Below are positions 8,887-58,369 of a DNA stretch of 64,000 nt, one piece after another. The translations under genes and the position numbers were made by a program. The notes below the pieces were generated by a model that worked only from the letters and a program-made list of their open reading frames with translations, ran no database searches and was not told the DNA's origin. Each line of letters opens with the position of its first letter. Within the stretch, counting starts at the first letter, position 1. Where the stretch lies: the sequence record OR352955.1. One strand, given 5' to 3'. Origin of the DNA: Escherichia phage AV125.

Positions 8887-10260
8887 ATGGCAACTTTTCG
8901 TGAAAAGGTAGCAACCGTAACTTTACTGTATGGTGCTACATCAATTCGTGAAACCCAGTTCGATATTCCCCTGATCCTTACAGGTCAGAACGTAACTGGC
9001 GAAGCGATTCAATATTACTCTTCTTCCGATGCACTTTTGGAAGCAGGTTATGGATTAAATGATCCAGCGTATATTATGGCAGTCAAACTGTTTAACGGTT
9101 TGTTCCCACCAGATCAAGTTATGGTTGGTAAGCGTGAAGTTACAAACTTTACTCTAACTCCAATCGTAGAAGATAGTGCAACTTACACAATTACCATCAA
9201 AAATGGTACCAAGAAAAAAGAATTTAAATTCATTGCTGATGACACTGCAACTGCACAAGAGATTGTAGTTGGTCTGACTGAAATGATCAATGCAGATCTT
9301 GTTTATGGCCCACTGTTTACAGTAGCTAACAACGGCGCTGCAATGACTTTCACTCCAGTAGAAGGTAAGTTTGGTTCTATTGACAGCACAGGTTTCACTC
9401 AAGAAACTGTCTATGCTAATGCTATTACGGAAGATATTGCTGCTCTGCATGATATTGATAGTAGCTGGTTCTGGACCCTTTCAGATTCCCATGAAACAGA
9501 AGATATTCTAGCTTTGGCTGCATGGGTAGAAGAGAATGATAAAGTTTACTTCTTCTCTAGTTCTGAACCTGGAATTAAAACGAAAGCAGAAGATAACGTT
9601 CTGGAACGACTGAATGATCTCGGTTATAATAACACTTGCTTTGCATTGTGGATGACCGATGCAGATTCTGTATTCCCAGAAGCAGCAGTTGTTGGTGCTA
9701 TCTGTTCTCGTCAACCTGGTTTAACTACCCTTCACGGTAAAACACTGGTAGGTGTAGAGATCGAGAAACTGGATCAGACTTCGGAAAACAATATTGTTCA
9801 ACAGAACGGTAACATCTATCGTAAAGAGCATGGAACTCTGTTCTATCGTGATGGATTGATGGTTAGCGGTTTCTTTGTTGACTATGTTGTTCATGCTTTG
9901 TGGTTTAAAGCTCGCACAGAAGAATCACTGTTTACACTGTTTAAACAACAGTCTATGCTGGGTGGTGGTGTTCGTGCTACTTCAAACGGTCTAGCTTTGA
10001 TTCGACAAGCTGTTCTGGCTAACCCGATCCAAGTAGGTATCCTCAACGGTTCCATCGCTAATGAAGTTGTTACTTCTGAAGAGACTGGTTTGCGTGTCGA
10101 TCTGAAACCTATTGTTTATATTCCTTCTCGTGCCGATATGACCGATGCGCAAATCAATGCTCGTCTGGTTGATGGGATGAAGATTGAATATGTTTACGCT
10201 GGCTTCTTCCATTACGTTAAAGTTCAGGTCAACGTCCTGACTAACCGTACTGCAAACTAA
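8887..10260 (+). CDS. Tail sheath protein (putative)
   Basis: 457-aa ORF immediately upstream of the tube-like gene, chaperone pair and tape measure; followed by a strong terminator; RBS AGGAGCA. Confidence 0.5.
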   Translation: MATFREKVATVTLLYGATSIRETQFDIPLILTGQNVTGEAIQYYSSSDALLEAGYGLNDPAYIMAVKLFNGLFPPDQVMVGKREVTNFTLTPIVEDSATYTITIKNGTKKKEFKFIADDTATAQEIVVGLTEMINADLVYGPLFTVANNGAAMTFTPVEGKFGSIDSTGFTQETVYANAITEDIAALHDIDSSWFWTLSDSHETEDILALAAWVEENDKVYFFSSSEPGIKTKAEDNVLERLNDLGYNNTCFALWMTDADSVFPEAAVVGAICSRQPGLTTLHGKTLVGVEIEKLDQTSENNIVQQNGNIYRKEHGTLFYRDGLMVSGFFVDYVVHALWFKARTEESLFTLFKQQSMLGGGVRATSNGLALIRQAVLANPIQVGILNGSIANEVVTSEETGLRVDLKPIVYIPSRADMTDAQINARLVDGMKIEYVYAGFFHYVKVQVNVLTNRTAN

Positions 10261-10306: not shown

Positions 10307-10786
10307 ATGGATAAAATGCTTACTGGCGTAATGGCCTACGACCCATCTCAAGTTATCCTTTCATTAGGTGGTTGGGAACCGTGGGGTTTTGCGGCTGATA
10401 CTAAAATCGTTATTGCTAAATCTAACGATATTATCAACCCTTATTCAGGGACTGATGGGGACGTTTCACTAGCTTTGAGTCGTAACCGTTTGGGAACACT
10501 CACAATGTCTTTGCAACGCACATCTCCAGCTAACGAAGTACTTGCAACATATGCACAAACAATGTATTCTACTCGTCAAGTAGCATTCAGTGTTTACTTG
10601 GAAGACCCACGTGGCTATTACATTAGCACGATTGGATGGATTCAAAGTCAACCTGAAGATACTATTGGCGAAATGATTACAGAGAACCAATGGGTTATTG
10701 GTCTTAAAGATGCAAGCCTTCTGCGTAATGAAGTTGGTGTAGGTTTGAGCACCCTTAACTCAATCTCTGCTCTGACAATTCAATAA
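10307..10786 (+). CDS. Tail tube protein (putative)
   Basis: 159-aa ORF between the sheath and chaperone genes; followed by a terminator. Confidence 0.45.
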   Translation: MDKMLTGVMAYDPSQVILSLGGWEPWGFAADTKIVIAKSNDIINPYSGTDGDVSLALSRNRLGTLTMSLQRTSPANEVLATYAQTMYSTRQVAFSVYLEDPRGYYISTIGWIQSQPEDTIGEMITENQWVIGLKDASLLRNEVGVGLSTLNSISALTIQ

Positions 10787-10791
10787 TAAAT

Positions 10792-10814
10792 AAAGGGCAG
10801 AAATGCCCTTTTTA
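10792..10814 (+). terminator. Rho-independent terminator after tube gene
   Basis: Stem AAAGGGCA / TGCCCTTT with loop GAAA, followed by TTTAT. Confidence 0.55.
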
Positions 10815-10831
10815 TCATTAGAGAGGAAAAT

Positions 10832-11314
10832 ATGTCACAAGAACAAGATAACACAATTCAAAAATATGCTCGACCAGAAGAAGTAGTTGAGATTCCGTTA
10901 GATGGAAACAGATCTGTTACTTTCCGTATTATGAAGTGGAGTCCATCTAAAGTGTTTGACAGGATTCCAGAATTAGGTAGTGTTCTGGTTGTTCCTATGA
11001 CTATGTATAGCACAGCAACAATGTCCGCAGACGAAGACCTTGAGTCACGTATTGCTATGGCACTGATCCAACTTTTTGCAGGTTTGGAAGAAAAGAATTT
11101 AACTGTCTTTTTGCGTAAAATTTTAGATGAGGTTTATACCCAAGACGGTTATAACGTTGCAGAAAATTTTGATGAATTATTTATGGCTCACCCAGAACTA
11201 GTGTTAGATCTTACTGCTAAAGTTCTGGAGGTAAACTACGGCCCTTTTTTCAAACGAGGTTTCGGAAAACTGTTCACACAGCTTCAGGCGATGACGAGTT
11301 TAGCAGCAAATTAA
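10832..11314 (+). CDS. Tail assembly chaperone (G-like, zero-frame product)
   Basis: 160-aa ORF directly upstream of the tape measure gene; contains a slippery heptamer near its 3' end. Confidence 0.5.
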   Translation: MSQEQDNTIQKYARPEEVVEIPLDGNRSVTFRIMKWSPSKVFDRIPELGSVLVVPMTMYSTATMSADEDLESRIAMALIQLFAGLEEKNLTVFLRKILDEVYTQDGYNVAENFDELFMAHPELVLDLTAKVLEVNYGPFFKRGFGKLFTQLQAMTSLAAN

Positions 11315-11580
11315 CACCTGCGATTGAACATGCTATCGACACAGCAACGAAAACCCTTACTTTGAAGTGGTATGAGGTTATTCTTTGCAAAGTCGTTAAA
11401 GATACCTCGGAAACACTGAAAACATTAGATAACTACGGTGTAGATTATCTTTTAAAACTATATGAGTATTTAACATACGAAGAGTATGTTGAAGCCATGT
11501 ATGTTAAAGACACTTCAATAAAGAGAAAACATCAAAACCAGACAAATAAAATGTCAGATTTGTTTAAGAAACTTGTTTAA
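11245..11580 (+). other. -1 programmed frameshift site (T_TTT_TTC at 11245-11251) and -1 frame extension giving a GT-like chaperone fusion
   Basis: Heptamer is in X_XXY_YYZ register in the zero frame. The -1 frame is open from at least 11221 through the track ORF 11362-11580 with no stop. Position between tube and tape measure matches the conserved G/GT arrangement. Confidence 0.5.
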
Positions 11581-11600
11581 TCCAACACGAGGAACATACT

Positions 11601-13589
11601 TTGTTAGAAATTAACGCCTCCAGAATTAGTAACGTGGTTACGTTTAAGGTGGACAAGAACAGTCTCAAGGAAGCAAAAGATGCCGTGTTGAGTGTTCAGA
11701 AGTTTGCAAATAAAATGCAACCCACTATGAACATGACCAAGTTTAGACAACAAATGAAAGAGATTGAGCGTGAACTTAAGAAAGCTCAAACTCAAAGCCA
11801 AAAACCTATGCGAGCACCTACTCCCGCTGGAGCGGGTGCTCCTGTAGGTGGTTCTGGTAGACCTAGAACTCCTAAAACCCCACAAGGTAGAGAAGAAGAA
11901 AAAGCTCGTAAAGCGGCTGAACGCGAAGCTAAAGCAGCAGCACGTAGGGAAGACTTAGGTAATCTTCGTTTACAGAACTTTAACTATCGAGCAAGAGCAT
12001 TTAGTAAAGCCAGTCCTGGAGCTATGCAAGAAGCTAGAGACGTTATGGGTAAAGCTGTAGAGCAATACAAAAAGGGTGAAATAACTCTTCAACGTATGAA
12101 CCAAGCTCTTGCTCACCAGTTAGATGCTTTACGCAGATCTCATCGTGAAAAGAATGCTGAAATAGAAGATGAGGTTCGCGGTCGTCGCCGTATTCGTAGA
12201 GAGCTAGAAGCAGAAGCTAAAATGCGTATACGTATGCGAAATCGTGAACTTAGGGATATAGAACGAAATCGTAAGCGTGAATTGGCACAACAAAAACGTG
12301 ATCGTGATCGTAGATATGGACAACTAAAAGAAGGTGCAGCAGGTCTTAATCCACGTATGATTGCATCCTCTTTGATAGGTGCTGGACTGTTTGCAGGTGG
12401 TTCTGTAGTAGGTAACACGTTGATGAATACTAACGAAAGAATTAAACTTGTAAGCCGTGGTGCTGAAAACGTACAGACAAACGCCAACTCTATTTTAACA
12501 ATGACAGCTTGGGGTGAACAGAACGGTGTAGACTCTGCAAATATTATTAAATCAATAGATAATATTAAAGACGTTCGTGAACGTCTTGGTAATACCGTTT
12601 TAGCTGCAAAGTGGAATGAGAAAGAAGGGAAGTGGAAAGGCGGTGATAATGGCATAACTGACATTATGAACTTGTTTGGATGGAATCCAGAACAGCTTAA
12701 ACCTTTACAGAACGATCCTTTAGCTTTTATTCAGGCTACTGTTAATGAAGGTGAGCGTCGAGGTATGAACTCTGCTCAAATCGGGCGACTTCTTGAAAAC
12801 CTTGGTGATGACCTTATGCACTACCAACGTATGTTTAGTAAAAACGGCGAAGGCTACAATGAAACATTGAAAATGCTTCAAAGAACAGGTGCAACATTAA
12901 CTCAAGAACAAATAGATGCTTCTAAAGAGTTTACTCGTTTTGCTGCAACAGTTCAGCTTGTAGGTCAAGGTATGCAGAACCACTTCTTAGAGGGTTTTGT
13001 GAAAGCCTTACCTAAAGATGATTCTTGGTTGGATAACGTTAAAGTGCTAGATCAGTTTGCCAAAGATTTAGGTGAAGAACTTGGTAAGACAACAGTTCAA
13101 TTAGGAGGTTTTGCTAAAGAATTGGGAGATGGTTTCGGATCTTTTACCAATTGGCTTAAAGAAACATTCCCAGATACCTTCGGAGACAACACAGATCCTA
13201 ATAAATCTATGGCACAAAAAGCATACGAGGCAACGCAAAGTGGAGATAGCAATCCTGTAGCAGATTGGTTGTACAATTTAACAGGTATTGATACACAAGA
13301 CATTGGTCGTATGTGGAGAGGAGAACAAACAAGGACACGTGCTTTTGGATTTGGTAATCCTCTTGAAGATTTACGTGAATCAGCCTATACACCTAACGTA
13401 AGTTTGGCTCGTAATCAACCTGTTGTTGAGAATACGGTAGCAATACCAAGTGATCTTATCAAAGTTACGATCAGCCCTTCTTCAGAGTTTGGAAATATTC
13501 TTGATGCAAGAATTCAAAATAGCGGAAATAGCATTTTCCAACGTTTATCTCTTTCAACTCTAAGTGGACAATCTAACACTGGTGGTTAA
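11601..13589 (+). CDS. Tail tape measure protein
   Basis: 662-aa ORF; N-terminal half Arg/Glu/Ala-rich helical; central hydrophobic Gly-rich segment (IASSLIGAGLFAGGSVVGN); TTG start after GAGGA; sits after the chaperone pair; followed by a terminator. Confidence 0.6.
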   Translation: MLEINASRISNVVTFKVDKNSLKEAKDAVLSVQKFANKMQPTMNMTKFRQQMKEIERELKKAQTQSQKPMRAPTPAGAGAPVGGSGRPRTPKTPQGREEEKARKAAEREAKAAARREDLGNLRLQNFNYRARAFSKASPGAMQEARDVMGKAVEQYKKGEITLQRMNQALAHQLDALRRSHREKNAEIEDEVRGRRRIRRELEAEAKMRIRMRNRELRDIERNRKRELAQQKRDRDRRYGQLKEGAAGLNPRMIASSLIGAGLFAGGSVVGNTLMNTNERIKLVSRGAENVQTNANSILTMTAWGEQNGVDSANIIKSIDNIKDVRERLGNTVLAAKWNEKEGKWKGGDNGITDIMNLFGWNPEQLKPLQNDPLAFIQATVNEGERRGMNSAQIGRLLENLGDDLMHYQRMFSKNGEGYNETLKMLQRTGATLTQEQIDASKEFTRFAATVQLVGQGMQNHFLEGFVKALPKDDSWLDNVKVLDQFAKDLGEELGKTTVQLGGFAKELGDGFGSFTNWLKETFPDTFGDNTDPNKSMAQKAYEATQSGDSNPVADWLYNLTGIDTQDIGRMWRGEQTRTRAFGFGNPLEDLRESAYTPNVSLARNQPVVENTVAIPSDLIKVTISPSSEFGNILDARIQNSGNSIFQRLSLSTLSGQSNTGG

Positions 13590-13596
13590 TAAAATA

Positions 13597-13618
13597 CCTC
13601 GCTTCGGCGAGGTTTTTT
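13597..13618 (+). terminator. Rho-independent terminator after tape measure gene
   Basis: Stem CCTCGC / GCGAGG with loop TTCG, followed by TTTTTT. Confidence 0.7.
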
Positions 13619-14419: not shown

Positions 14420-14833
14420 GTGACAACTTATTCTAAAACAACAAGGTCTACAAGTAATACAGGCTACAGTGCAGTTTATCTAGAGGACCATTCTACTTAT
14501 TTTGCATGGTACCTGAAAACTGAAGAGTATCCTGATCAAACATATACAGTTACATTGGATGGGGTTGATTATGATATTCGTTTAAGGTGGAACACTAGGG
14601 ACGAGTCTTGGCAATGTCAGATTGGATTATCTGGAGATGATCCAAGTATAAGTTTCAAAGTTACAAATGGTTTAGATCTTCTTAAACCTTATAAATATCT
14701 TGAAAGTGTGCCAGATGGTCAATTATATATAGTAGATACAGTTAAGATTAATGGTCGTCCTGGGTATACAACTACAGGTCGAGATAAACGTTTTGTATTG
14801 GTTTATATTGATAACAAACCTAATCAGGCGTAA
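14420..14833 (+). CDS. Baseplate protein (unassigned)
   Basis: 137-aa ORF with GTG start after GGAGG; within the baseplate cluster. Confidence 0.3.
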   Translation: MTTYSKTTRSTSNTGYSAVYLEDHSTYFAWYLKTEEYPDQTYTVTLDGVDYDIRLRWNTRDESWQCQIGLSGDDPSISFKVTNGLDLLKPYKYLESVPDGQLYIVDTVKINGRPGYTTTGRDKRFVLVYIDNKPNQA

Positions 14834-57397: not shown

Positions 57398-57835
57398 TTA
57401 ACGTCGCTTGCTACGAGATGAACTCTTTTTACTTAAAGGGCTATTGTAAGATTTACGAGTTGTATAGCTACTATTTGTTTTAAAAGTTTGTCTCGGCTTT
57501 TCATAAGTTTTTATCTCTTGTTTAGGCTTACTATAAAAATTAGTTTTCGGTTTAGGTGTATTATAATGCTTATTAATAATCGTTCTGTTATCGTTATAAT
57601 CCCCACTGCTACGATTACTACCGCCACTCATCATATGCCCTAACAACATACCTGTAGCAAACTCACCAACACCGCTACTACTAGAACCGCCACCATTGTT
57701 GATAATAGTTGTATCTCCGTCAGATCCTTGTTGAGCGTATTGTTGAGGAGGTTGTTGGTATTGTGCAGGATTTGTTTCATCCTCGCAAGCTGTTAAAAAG
57801 ATACAACCAATTAAAATCAGGGCTAGTTTTTTCAT
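57398..57835 (-). CDS. Lipoprotein (lipobox LTAC), Gly/Ser-rich
   Basis: Track ORF trimmed to the ATG at 57835; signal peptide MKKLALILIGCIFLTAC with lipobox Cys; overlaps the 3' end of the upstream TM-protein gene in another frame. Confidence 0.4.
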   Translation of the reverse strand: MKKLALILIGCIFLTACEDETNPAQYQQPPQQYAQQGSDGDTTIINNGGGSSSSGVGEFATGMLLGHMMSGGSNRSSGDYNDNRTIINKHYNTPKPKTNFYSKPKQEIKTYEKPRQTFKTNSSYTTRKSYNSPLSKKSSSRSKRR

Positions 57836-58022
57836 ATTTGCTTTCCTCGTTTTGGCTATTAATACATCTGTGTTTGAAATCTCCAGAGAAGCAATAAAGT
57901 TGCTCTCCATCTCGGTATAAACTCACTTTACTGCCGTTGATTACGCTTGTCAATACAAAAATTACAACAAACAACCCTATTGCAAAACAAATATTTTCAA
58001 ACACAACCAACAAGTATTTCAT
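57777..58022 (-). CDS. Small membrane protein with N-terminal TM helix
   Basis: 81-aa ORF; hydrophobic segment LVVFENICFAIGLFVVIFVLTSVI; ATG with GAGGT RBS. Confidence 0.3.
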   Translation of the reverse strand: MKYLLVVFENICFAIGLFVVIFVLTSVINGSKVSLYRDGEQLYCFSGDFKHRCINSQNEESKYEKTSPDFNWLYLFNSLRG

Positions 58023-58369
58023 TTTAAAAATACCTCATCATCAGTTTCATTATCCCAGAAGAACAAGTCCCAACCATTCGGATCATTCCATTTAGCTGCT
58101 GGAGAAGTCCATATTTGCTCGATATCAATATTCAAAACTTCACCGTTTCGTTTTGAAACAGCTTTAGTTAATTCCCAACGGGATACAGGCTCCACTTCCC
58201 CTGAACCACTCCCACAACAAGCTACCACATTAGGAGGCAAATTAATTGGATCTTTGGTCACGATCATAACGCTTACCCCAGGGTAAACTTTTGAAAGATA
58301 ATCTAAAACGTAATCCACATCACCAGATAAATCCCAAACAAGTTCTTGAATTTCATCAAAATTACTCAT
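58019..58369 (-). CDS. Hypothetical protein
   Basis: 116-aa ORF; start after a terminator hairpin. Confidence 0.3.
   Translation of the reverse strand: MSNFDEIQELVWDLSGDVDYVLDYLSKVYPGVSVMIVTKDPINLPPNVVACCGSGSGEVEPVSRWELTKAVSKRNGEVLNIDIEQIWTSPAAKWNDPNGWDLFFWDNETDDEVFLK

What the first reader, a model, noticed from the sequence alone, without database searches (positions are those of the whole stretch)
11245..11580. Programmed -1 frameshift (T_TTT_TTC) in the tail assembly chaperone
The slippery heptamer is in the correct register near the 3' end of the chaperone ORF, and the -1 frame is open through to the stop at 11580. This matches the conserved G/GT frameshift found between the tube and tape measure genes of tailed phages. 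The track lists the downstream ORF as an independent gene, which would be a mis-annotation.
Basis: partly seen in the sequence, partly recalled or inferred. Interest (0 to 1): 0.4.

Follow-up and report, generated by a model that had tools for sequence, protein, structure and literature searches.

The report
Tail chaperone -1 frameshift, unannotated
This E. coli phage almost certainly makes a second, longer version of its tail assembly chaperone by letting ribosomes slip back one base at TTTTTTC, the ordinary, well-known trick of tailed phages, which database records for this phage group have simply failed to annotate.

Summary
The window is Escherichia phage vB_EcoM_ESCO25 (Phapecoctavirus). 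T_TTT_TTC lies at 11245-11251, in register (ccT TTT TTC = Pro-Phe-Phe), 63 nt before the stop of a 160-aa tail assembly chaperone (Pfam Phage_TAC_15). That gene sits between the sheath/tube genes and the tape measure gene. The -1 frame is open from 11221 to 11580.

In 57 of 57 relatives located by a conserved flanking motif (two subfamilies, chaperone identity down to about 30%), the heptamer is invariant at all three synonymous positions. The -1 frame stays open for 101-127 codons. Three more distant relatives keep the open -1 frame; one uses G_GGA_AAG (the lambda heptamer) and one A_AAT_TTT.

The downstream frame has no conserved start codon and no Shine-Dalgarno sequence. It still evolves as coding sequence upstream of any possible start. 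I found no downstream RNA structure. A GGAGG element 13 nt upstream, present in most relatives, may stimulate the shift.

The predicted products are G (160 aa) and GT (249 aa), join(10832..11251,11251..11580).

This is a new member of a known kind; the closest tested analogue is phage P2 E/E+E' at TTTTTTG. None of 60 listed Phapecoctavirus records annotates the fusion. Interest is low, apart from the annotation fix.

The parts
10307..10786 (+). Tail tube gene (context, upstream neighbour). It is followed by a terminator-like hairpin at 10792-10811.
   Evidence: PHROG 280 at E=3e-35; Pfam KPP10_Orf10 at 24.4 bits, just under the cut-off of 25. Annotated as tail tube or virion structural protein in relatives. 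Hairpin.
10832..11314 (+). Tail assembly chaperone, short product G (160 aa, 18.2 kDa), from zero-frame translation.
   Evidence: Pfam PF21822 Phage_TAC_15 at E=1.3e-23 (84.3 bits, cut-off 22); PHROG 3840 'tail assembly chaperone' at E=2.8e-55. Shine-Dalgarno GAGAGGA upstream, anti-SD duplex -6.4 kcal/mol.
11227..11231 (+). Internal Shine-Dalgarno-like GGAGG, 13 nt upstream of the heptamer. Possible dnaX-type stimulator of the -1 shift (inferred).
   Evidence: Anti-SD duplex of -10.7 kcal/mol, stronger than every other window of the G ORF. An element of -6 kcal/mol or stronger sits at this place in 27 of 34 unique relatives and is absent in 7.
11221..11314 (+). Overlap zone, where both the zero frame (G C-terminus) and the -1 frame are open. 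A productive shift must occur here.
   Evidence: The -1 frame is closed by TAA at 11218-11220 and open from 11221; the G stop ends at 11314.
11245..11251 (+). Slippery heptamer T_TTT_TTC (zero-frame codons ccT TTT TTC). The overlapping C_CCT_TTT at 11242-11248 would give the same product.
   Evidence: Read directly; register. Invariant in 57 of 57 relatives, including all three third-codon positions. The H_HH.U_UU.Y class is among the most efficient -1 motifs in E. coli (PMC4066793).
11251..11580 (+). T segment, 109 codons read in the -1 frame after the shift. The fusion GT is join(10832..11251,11251..11580), 249 aa, 28.8 kDa. In OM386656.1 that is join(56840..57259,57259..57588).
   Evidence: Open frame. 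The homologous T segment is conserved in two subfamilies. There is a coding-type substitution pattern upstream of any start codon. Candidate starts have no Shine-Dalgarno sequence. PHROG 16039 at E=9.5e-45, function unknown.
11601..13589 (+). Tape measure protein gene (context, downstream neighbour). It starts 21 nt after the T stop.
   Evidence: PHROG 16051 'tail length tape measure protein', 1241 bits. No promoter-like or terminator-like site lies between 11314 and 11601.

Best explanation
This is a programmed -1 ribosomal frameshift of the lambda G/GT and P2 E/E+E' kind. Most ribosomes translate the chaperone gene 10832-11314 to its stop and make G (160 aa).

A minority shift frame while tRNA-Phe molecules occupy the P and A sites on UUU UUC (11246-11251). 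Both tRNAs slip back one base onto UUU UUU. Translation then continues in the -1 frame from 11251 to the stop at 11578-11580. The result is GT (249 aa): the first 140 residues of G fused to a 109-residue T segment.

By analogy with lambda, the shared G part binds the tape measure protein encoded just downstream. The T part recruits the tube protein encoded just upstream. The fixed slippage rate sets the G:GT ratio needed for correct tail assembly, and neither protein ends up in the virion.

The slip needs no downstream RNA structure. An internal Shine-Dalgarno-like GGAGG 13 nt upstream may raise its rate.

**Shown:** the anatomy, the conservation, and the absence of initiation signals.

**Inferred:** that the fusion protein is made, its ratio to G, its binding partners, and the role of the GGAGG.
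For: **Gene context.** The order sheath, tube, chaperone, T frame, tape measure matches the myovirus pattern. The G part is a bona fide chaperone family member.

**Slip site.** The heptamer is in register inside a 94-nt overlap. It is the only heptamer in the window that opens into a -1 frame of 100 or more codons.

**Conservation.**
- TTTTTTC is in register in 13 of 13 GenBank relatives from Stephanstirmvirinae and Vequintavirinae, with chaperone identity of 28-82%.
- It is also in register in 44 of 44 IMG/VR loci.
- The -1 frame is open for 101-127 codons in every one.
- The three synonymous positions inside the heptamer are 100% invariant over 32 unique contexts. Most neighbouring third positions show 0.34-0.66 majority frequency, and a few just upstream reach 0.72-0.97.

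**Heptamer replacement in more distant relatives.** All three keep a -1 frame of 120-131 codons.
- Rheinheimera phage Barba18A has G_GGA_AAG three codons downstream.
- Vibrio phage S4-7 has A_AAT_TTT.
- Aeromonas phage phiA019 has TTTTTTC.

**No independent initiation.**
- The first in-frame start codons fall at different places. In Hena1 and KB57 they fall inside the conserved T domain.
- 17 stand-alone gene calls for T homologues use 7 different starts.
- Candidate starts in the window have anti-SD duplex energies of +1.2, +0.1 and -2.4 kcal/mol. The real genes of the module have -5.8 to -10.7.
- The 16 codons between the G stop and the first possible start (11314-11361) show diversity of 0.43/0.40/0.63 at T-frame codon positions 1/2/3. 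The rest of T shows the same pattern, 0.43/0.37/0.62.

**Slipperiness.** H_HH.U_UU.Y heptamers are in the most efficient class in E. coli. U_UU.U_UU.C gives more than 0.1% frameshifting without any stimulator (PMC4066793).

**Precedent.**
- P2 shifts at TTTTTTG with no downstream structure (PMC3091744).
- The same -1 frameshift has been argued for the related Vandenendeviridae and Andersonviridae (PMC12846349).
Against: No protein-level evidence exists. The fusion has not been observed, and chaperones are absent from virions, so virion proteomics is silent on it.

No downstream stimulatory structure was found (energy z-scores from -1.2 to +1.8 in 13 relatives). This is normal for lambda and P2 but removes one possible support.

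The Phe-Phe dipeptide is itself conserved (NYG[PC]FF), so part of the heptamer's conservation is protein-level. Only the three synonymous positions are independent evidence.

No relative with G and T fused in one frame was found.

One of the two IMG/VR retrieval patterns required the FF residues. That constrains amino acids but not codons.
Confidence: 0.88

Rival explanations
1. Transcriptional slippage. RNA polymerase adds one extra U at the T6 run in a fraction of transcripts, and normal translation of those mRNAs gives the same GT protein.
For: The site is a homopolymer run of T6. A +1 U mRNA would encode the identical ...PFFQT... junction, so protein data cannot tell the two apart. Transcriptional realignment at homopolymer runs is a known source of such fusions (PMC5009743).
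Against: - Six T is short for efficient slippage by bacterial RNA polymerase. Known cases use longer runs (established knowledge, not tested here).
- No relative has lengthened the run: it is exactly T6 in 57 of 57.
- Distant relatives replace it with G_GGA_AAG or A_AAT_TTT. These are tRNA-slippage heptamers, not homopolymers.
- The run keeps the X_XXY_YYZ register, and many lineages carry an upstream Shine-Dalgarno-like element, which acts on ribosomes.
Confidence: 0.06
2. Two separate genes. The downstream ORF is translated on its own from a weak or non-canonical start (ATT 11323 as annotated in ESCO13, or TTG 11362), and the heptamer is only the codons of a conserved Phe-Phe.
For: 21 of the 60 listed Phapecoctavirus records annotate it as a separate hypothetical protein. 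The Phe-Phe dipeptide is conserved at the protein level. All 18 database homologues are stand-alone calls.
Against: - No start codon is conserved in position, and several relatives have none until well inside the conserved domain.
- There is no Shine-Dalgarno sequence before any candidate start.
- Coding-type conservation extends upstream of all candidate starts.
- Synonymous positions of the heptamer are invariant, which protein conservation does not explain.
- The -1 frame is kept open back to the heptamer in every genome.
Confidence: 0.04
3. A chance heptamer next to a chance open frame, with no function.
For: In-register heptamers occur about once per 230 codons in this window. One falling in a 31-codon overlap has a probability of roughly 0.13 in a single genome.
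Against: A 109-codon open -1 frame is a clear outlier among the 88 heptamers. The whole arrangement is conserved in 60 of 60 relatives across large divergence.
Confidence: 0.01

Closest known systems
Phage P2 E / E+E' tail chaperone frameshift (Christie et al. 2002; Xu, Hendrix and Duda 2004; as summarised in PMC3091744)
   Same: Both are contractile-tailed phages with the gene order sheath, tube, chaperone pair, tape measure. [quoted passage not shown] Neither has a downstream RNA structure.
   Different: There is no detectable sequence relationship. The G part here matches Pfam Phage_TAC_15 only. The products are larger (160 and 249 aa against 91 and 142 aa). The last base of the heptamer is C rather than G. 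A GGAGG lies upstream here. The P2 shift is shown experimentally, and this one is not.
Phage lambda gpG / gpGT (Levin, Hendrix and Casjens 1993; Xu et al. 2004, 2013, 2014; reviewed in PMC5009743)
   Same: Both have two overlapping ORFs between the major tail (tube) gene and the tape measure gene, with a -1 shift producing a minor long form. The inferred division of labour is the same: G binds the tape measure and T binds the tube. A distant homologue of this locus (Rheinheimera phage Barba18A) carries lambda's own heptamer G_GGA_AAG.
   Different: Lambda is a siphovirus and uses G_GGA_AAG. No sequence similarity was found. The roughly 30:1 ratio and the binding partners are measured for lambda and only inferred here.
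TAC-N / TAC-NC -1 frameshift proposed for Vandenendeviridae (Pakpunavirus) and Andersonviridae (Felix O1-like, Mooglevirus) at a conserved GTTTTT motif (PMC12846349, December 2025)
   Same: That paper reports these families as structurally related to Vequintavirinae. [quoted passage not shown] In Vequintavirinae the site reads tGTTTTTTC, which contains that motif.
   Different: That paper did not report the site for Stephanstirmvirinae or Phapecoctavirus, where the context is cccTTTTTTC. I did not align these chaperones with those of Pakpunavirus or Felix O1, so homology of the sites is likely but not shown here.
E. coli dnaX gamma/tau -1 frameshift (upstream Shine-Dalgarno stimulator)
   Same: Both have a homopolymer-type heptamer with an internal Shine-Dalgarno-like sequence upstream. 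Here it is GGAGG 13 nt upstream, inside the 6-17 nt range searched for such stimulators in PMC4066793.
   Different: dnaX also has a strong downstream hairpin and shifts at about 50% to a shorter product. There is no hairpin here, the product is longer, and the Shine-Dalgarno-like element is missing in 7 of 34 relatives.

Membership tests
Tailed-phage G/GT tail assembly chaperone frameshift (Xu, Hendrix and Duda 2004) | The gene pair lies between the major tail/tube gene and the tape measure gene. | tested here: met
   Tube 10307-10786, G 10832-11314, T frame to 11580, tape measure 11601-13589.
Tailed-phage G/GT tail assembly chaperone frameshift (Xu, Hendrix and Duda 2004) | The downstream ORF overlaps the 3' end of the upstream ORF in the -1 frame. 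| tested here: met
   The -1 frame is open from 11221 to 11580, a 94-nt overlap. The +1 frame is closed after 7 codons.
Tailed-phage G/GT tail assembly chaperone frameshift (Xu, Hendrix and Duda 2004) | A slippery X_XXY_YYZ heptamer lies in the zero-frame register inside the overlap. | tested here: met
   T_TTT_TTC at 11245-11251. This motif class is efficient in E. coli (PMC4066793).
Tailed-phage G/GT tail assembly chaperone frameshift (Xu, Hendrix and Duda 2004) | The slip site and the open -1 frame are conserved in diverged relatives. | tested here: met
   57 of 57 relatives carry TTTTTTC, and 3 distant ones keep the open -1 frame (one with TTTTTTC, one with G_GGA_AAG, one with A_AAT_TTT). 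The -1 frame is open for 101-131 codons in all.
Tailed-phage G/GT tail assembly chaperone frameshift (Xu, Hendrix and Duda 2004) | The downstream segment has no translation start of its own. | tested here: met
   No conserved start, no Shine-Dalgarno sequence, and coding-type conservation upstream of all candidate starts.
Tailed-phage G/GT tail assembly chaperone frameshift (Xu, Hendrix and Duda 2004) | The fusion protein is made at a low fixed ratio, is required for tail assembly and is absent from virions. | not testable with these tools
   This needs expression, mutagenesis or proteomics of infected cells.
Pfam PF21822 Phage_TAC_15 (tail assembly chaperone family) | The protein scores above the family's gathering threshold. 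| tested here: met
   84.3 bits against a cut-off of 22, E=1.3e-23, residues 29-143.
Phage P2 gpE / E+E' protein family | Sequence homology to P2 gpE. | tested here: not met
   The Pfam scan at E up to 0.1 returned only Phage_TAC_15 for the G protein. The locus works like P2 E/E+E' but is not a sequence-level member.
dnaX-type stimulated -1 frameshift | An internal Shine-Dalgarno-like sequence lies 6-17 nt upstream of the heptamer. | tested here: inconclusive
   Present in the window (GGAGG, -10.7 kcal/mol, 13 nt upstream) and in 27 of 34 unique relatives, but it overlaps conserved Glu-Val codons and is absent in 7.
dnaX-type stimulated -1 frameshift | A stable hairpin or pseudoknot lies 5-9 nt downstream. 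| tested here: not met
   Folding 60 and 90 nt downstream in 13 relatives gave z-scores from -1.2 to +1.8 and no shared helix. Rfam gave no match in 10700-11700.

The most novel reading that the evidence does not exclude
The frameshift in this phage lineage may be tuned by an upstream internal Shine-Dalgarno element rather than being purely heptamer-driven. GGAGG/GAGGT lies 12-14 nt 5' of the heptamer and is the strongest anti-SD match of the whole chaperone ORF in 20 of 34 lineages. The G:GT ratio, and so tail assembly, would then depend on a dnaX-like rRNA-mRNA contact. Lineages that lost the element (KP13-16, KB57-type, CB7) would have a different ratio or some compensating change.
Probability: 0.3. 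Interest if true: 0.35.

Novelty: new member of a known kind. Interest (0 to 1): 0.2.

Why it matters
The main value is correct annotation. Phapecoctavirus, Justusliebigvirus and rV5-like phages are widely isolated and proposed for therapy and biocontrol against E. coli, Klebsiella and Salmonella.

In 60 listed Phapecoctavirus records the T segment is either blank (34), called a separate hypothetical protein with arbitrary starts (21), or sits in a record with no annotation (5). None joins it to the chaperone.

Annotating join(10832..11251,11251..11580) gives this family its missing essential tail assembly protein. It also removes a spurious 'hypothetical protein' family (PHROG 16039).

The result extends to Stephanstirmvirinae and Vequintavirinae a frameshift recently argued for the related Vandenendeviridae and Andersonviridae. 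The replacement of TTTTTTC by G_GGA_AAG in a distant homologue is a tidy example of a recoding site being kept while its sequence changes. It does not change what is known about mechanism.

Tried and rejected
**Downstream stimulatory structure.** I folded 60 and 90 nt after the heptamer in 13 relatives. Energies were no better than shuffled sequence and no helix was shared. Rfam gave only two sub-threshold sRNA matches elsewhere in 10700-11700. Rejected.

**Natural in-frame G-T fusions.** I searched the 5.8-billion-protein collection with the T segment for fused relatives as 'Rosetta stone' evidence. All 18 hits are 64-85-aa stand-alone calls. This neither helps nor hurts.

**Structure of the T segment.** AlphaFold2 on an 18-sequence alignment gave a low-confidence all-helical model (mean pLDDT 66, pTM 0.36, first 11 residues below 50). 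It was too poor for a fold search, so none was run. A sequence search of GT against PDB chains found nothing at E up to 1.

**Other frameshift candidates in the window.** The only other heptamer with a long -1 extension (T_TTA_AAA at 58028, minus strand, 81 codons) is an ordinary ATGA overlap, where the next gene has its own ATG.

**Literature.** The rV5 genome/proteome paper does not contain 'frameshift', 'chaperone' or 'tape measure' in its main text. A search for phAPEC8 with frameshift returned one paper, on phage spanins, which I did not open. A search combining Phapecoctavirus, Stephanstirmvirinae and Vequintavirinae with frameshift terms led only to the Adele paper and to a reference-list hit in the Sichuanvirus paper.

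**Promoter or terminator between G and the tape measure gene.** None was found between 11314 and 11601.

Full report
**What the window is.** A megablast of 10300-13600 matches Escherichia phage vB_EcoM_ESCO25 (OM386656.1) at 100% and about 60 other Phapecoctavirus genomes at 98-99%. Phapecoctavirus belongs to the subfamily Stephanstirmvirinae. Window position equals record position minus 46008.

The plus strand around the finding carries a contractile-tail module:
- sheath, 8887-10260 (PHROG 205, E=2e-100; Pfam DUF3383)
- tube, 10307-10786 (PHROG 280)
- a 160-aa ORF, 10832-11314, which matches Pfam Phage_TAC_15 at E=1.3e-23 and PHROG 3840 'tail assembly chaperone' at E=2.8e-55
- a gap with an open frame running to 11580
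- the tape measure gene, 11601-13589 (PHROG 16051, 1241 bits)

**The observation.** In the chaperone frame the sequence reads GGC CCT TTT TTC AAA (Gly-Pro-Phe-Phe-Lys). T_TTT_TTC at 11245-11251 is therefore in the X_XXY_YYZ register, 63 nt before the chaperone stop.

The -1 frame is closed by TAA at 11218-11220 and then stays open to the stop ending at 11580. That gives a 94-nt overlap and 109 codons after the shift point. The +1 frame closes after 7 codons. An overlapping C_CCT_TTT (11242-11248) would give the same product.

**Is it more than chance?** I scanned 72 likely genes of the window (about 20,300 codons) and found 88 in-register heptamers. Of these, 79 open into fewer than 20 codons in the -1 frame. 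Only the pair at 11242/11245 opens into 100 or more. The next longest (81 codons, minus strand, 58028) is an ordinary ATGA stop/start overlap with the following gene. A single heptamer in a 31-codon overlap is not rare on its own (about 0.13 expected), so the case rests on comparison with relatives.

**Comparative evidence.** I fetched the locus from 13 GenBank phages whose chaperones are 28-82% identical to this one:
- Stephanstirmvirinae and related: phiWec186, muut, KP2025 (no subfamily assigned in its record) and KP13-16
- Vequintavirinae: 18-1-2, rV5, SSE121, Hena1, KB57, CB7, CR9 and UPEC06

All carry TTTTTTC in register. All have the -1 frame open for 102-126 codons, ending just before the tape measure gene or, in CB7, before two inserted ORFs. 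Their T segments are homologous, sharing the motif A-x-x-x-A-x-K-x-x-S-L-x-W-[YF]-[DE] ... L-x-x-x-E-Y-L.

A scan of IMG/VR added 44 loci, 33 of them non-identical. Again every one has TTTTTTC in register and a -1 frame of 101-127 codons.

Over 32 unique 97-nt contexts, the three third-codon positions inside the heptamer are 100% invariant. Most neighbouring third positions show 0.34-0.66 majority frequency, with the three just upstream reaching 0.72-0.97. Conservation of the Phe-Phe dipeptide alone cannot explain that. One IMG/VR retrieval pattern required the residues FF, but that does not constrain codon choice.

More distant homologues are the most telling:
- Aeromonas phage phiA019 keeps TTTTTTC.
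- Rheinheimera phage Barba18A has lost the Phe-Phe and carries G_GGA_AAG, lambda's own heptamer, in register three codons downstream.
- Vibrio phage S4-7 has A_AAT_TTT.

All three keep a -1 frame of 120-131 codons encoding a homologous T segment. The sequence of the site changes while the arrangement persists.

**The downstream frame is not a gene of its own.**
- In-frame start codons fall at different places in different phages. In Hena1 and KB57 the first one lies inside the conserved domain.
- 17 stand-alone gene calls for T homologues from the large protein collection start at 7 different alignment positions. Some cut into invariant residues.
- In the window the candidate starts (ATT 11323 as used in the ESCO13 record, TTG 11362, ATG 11497) have anti-Shine-Dalgarno duplex energies of +1.2, +0.1 and -2.4 kcal/mol. 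The seven real gene starts of the module have -5.8 to -10.7.
- The 16 codons between the G stop and the first possible start (11314-11361) show nucleotide diversity of 0.43/0.40/0.63 at T-frame codon positions 1/2/3. The rest of T shows the same coding signature, 0.43/0.37/0.62.
- No promoter-like or terminator-like site lies between 11314 and 11601.

**Mechanism.** The best-supported mechanism is tandem -1 slippage of the two tRNA-Phe from UUU UUC onto UUU UUU. Both stay cognate after the shift.

Systematic measurements in E. coli place H_HH.U_UU.Y heptamers in the most efficient class. They list U_UU.U_UU.C among motifs giving more than 0.1% frameshifting without any stimulator (PMC4066793).

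The products would be G (160 aa, 18.2 kDa) and GT (140 + 109 = 249 aa, 28.8 kDa), annotated as join(10832..11251,11251..11580).

What the two proteins do is inferred from lambda. There, G and the G part of GT coat the tape measure protein and the T part recruits the tube protein. The ratio is about 30:1, and neither protein enters the virion (PMC5009743).

**Stimulators.** Folding 60 and 90 nt after the heptamer in 13 relatives gives energies indistinguishable from shuffled sequence (z from -1.2 to +1.8) with no shared helix. Rfam finds nothing there. The same is true of P2 (PMC3091744).

There is a GGAGG at 11227-11231, 13 nt upstream. Its duplex with the 16S rRNA 3' end is -10.7 kcal/mol. 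A comparable element (-6 kcal/mol or stronger) sits at the same place in 27 of 34 unique relatives. In 20 of them it is the strongest such match in the whole chaperone ORF. It is absent in 7.

The distance falls within the 6-17 nt range searched for such stimulators (PMC4066793). The element overlaps conserved Glu-Val codons, so I regard a dnaX-like stimulatory role as possible but not shown.

**Rivals.**
Three things argue for the ribosome: the run is short, it has never lengthened in 57 relatives, and distant homologues replace it with non-homopolymer heptamers.
- *Independent initiation.* The start-codon, Shine-Dalgarno and substitution-pattern data above contradict this.
- *Pure chance.* The conservation excludes this.

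**What is known already.** The G/GT frameshift is textbook (Xu, Hendrix and Duda 2004). The closest experimentally established case is P2 E/E+E', a myovirus with the same gene order that shifts at TTTTTTG without a downstream structure (PMC3091744).

A December 2025 paper argues, on the same comparative grounds, for a -1 frameshift at an invariant GTTTTT in the chaperone of Vandenendeviridae and Andersonviridae. It notes the relatedness of these families to Vequintavirinae (PMC12846349).

My searches turned up no description of the site for Phapecoctavirus, Stephanstirmvirinae or rV5. Among 60 listed Phapecoctavirus records the T region is unannotated in 34, a separate 'hypothetical protein' in 21, and lies in a record without annotation in 5. 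None joins it to the chaperone. The recent Eryne annotation (a Justusliebigvirus) and the rV5 RefSeq record also keep two separate genes.

**Verdict.** It is an ordinary, expected feature: a new member of a known kind. Its practical value is an annotation fix for a large, much-used phage group. The only mildly new angle is the conserved upstream Shine-Dalgarno-like element.

Noticed in passing
window 10792-10811 and 13596-13613: Terminator-like G+C hairpins followed by T-runs lie just after the tube gene and just after the tape measure gene. The first would attenuate transcription between the abundant sheath/tube genes and the low-abundance chaperone and tape measure genes.
   Followed up: no
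window 58016-58028, minus strand: An in-register T_TTA_AAA heptamer sits 3 nt before a stop, with an 81-codon -1 frame after it. It turned out to be a plain ATGA stop/start overlap between genes 58019-58369 and 57777-58022, with a GAGGT just upstream. This is translational coupling, not frameshifting.
   Followed up: yes
L062 (Rheinheimera phage Barba18A) 2132-2770; L013 (Pectobacterium phage CB7) 2300-3370: In some relatives extra genes are inserted between the T segment and the tape measure gene. Barba18A has an HNH endonuclease on the opposite strand, and CB7 has two hypothetical ORFs. Tight T-to-tape-measure adjacency is therefore not obligatory.
   Followed up: no
GenBank records MG065650.1, OP562383.1, MH252123.1 and several 'Campylobacter phage' records: Records named as Campylobacter, Acinetobacter or Klebsiella phages are 99-100% identical to E. 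coli Phapecoctavirus or rV5-like genomes at this locus. This suggests mislabelled hosts or contaminating coliphages in those sequencing projects.
   Followed up: no
L009 (phage rV5, NC_011041.1) 1851-2219: The rV5 RefSeq record annotates ORF 50 as a hypothetical protein starting at locus position 1851. That is inside the overlap zone and 3 nt upstream of the TTTTTTC at 1854, an artefactual start that masks the frameshift.
   Followed up: partly
window 11601: The tape measure gene appears to start with TTG, preceded by GAGGA, 21 nt after the T stop. Several tail-module genes use non-ATG starts (TTG at 11601, GTG at 14420).
   Followed up: no
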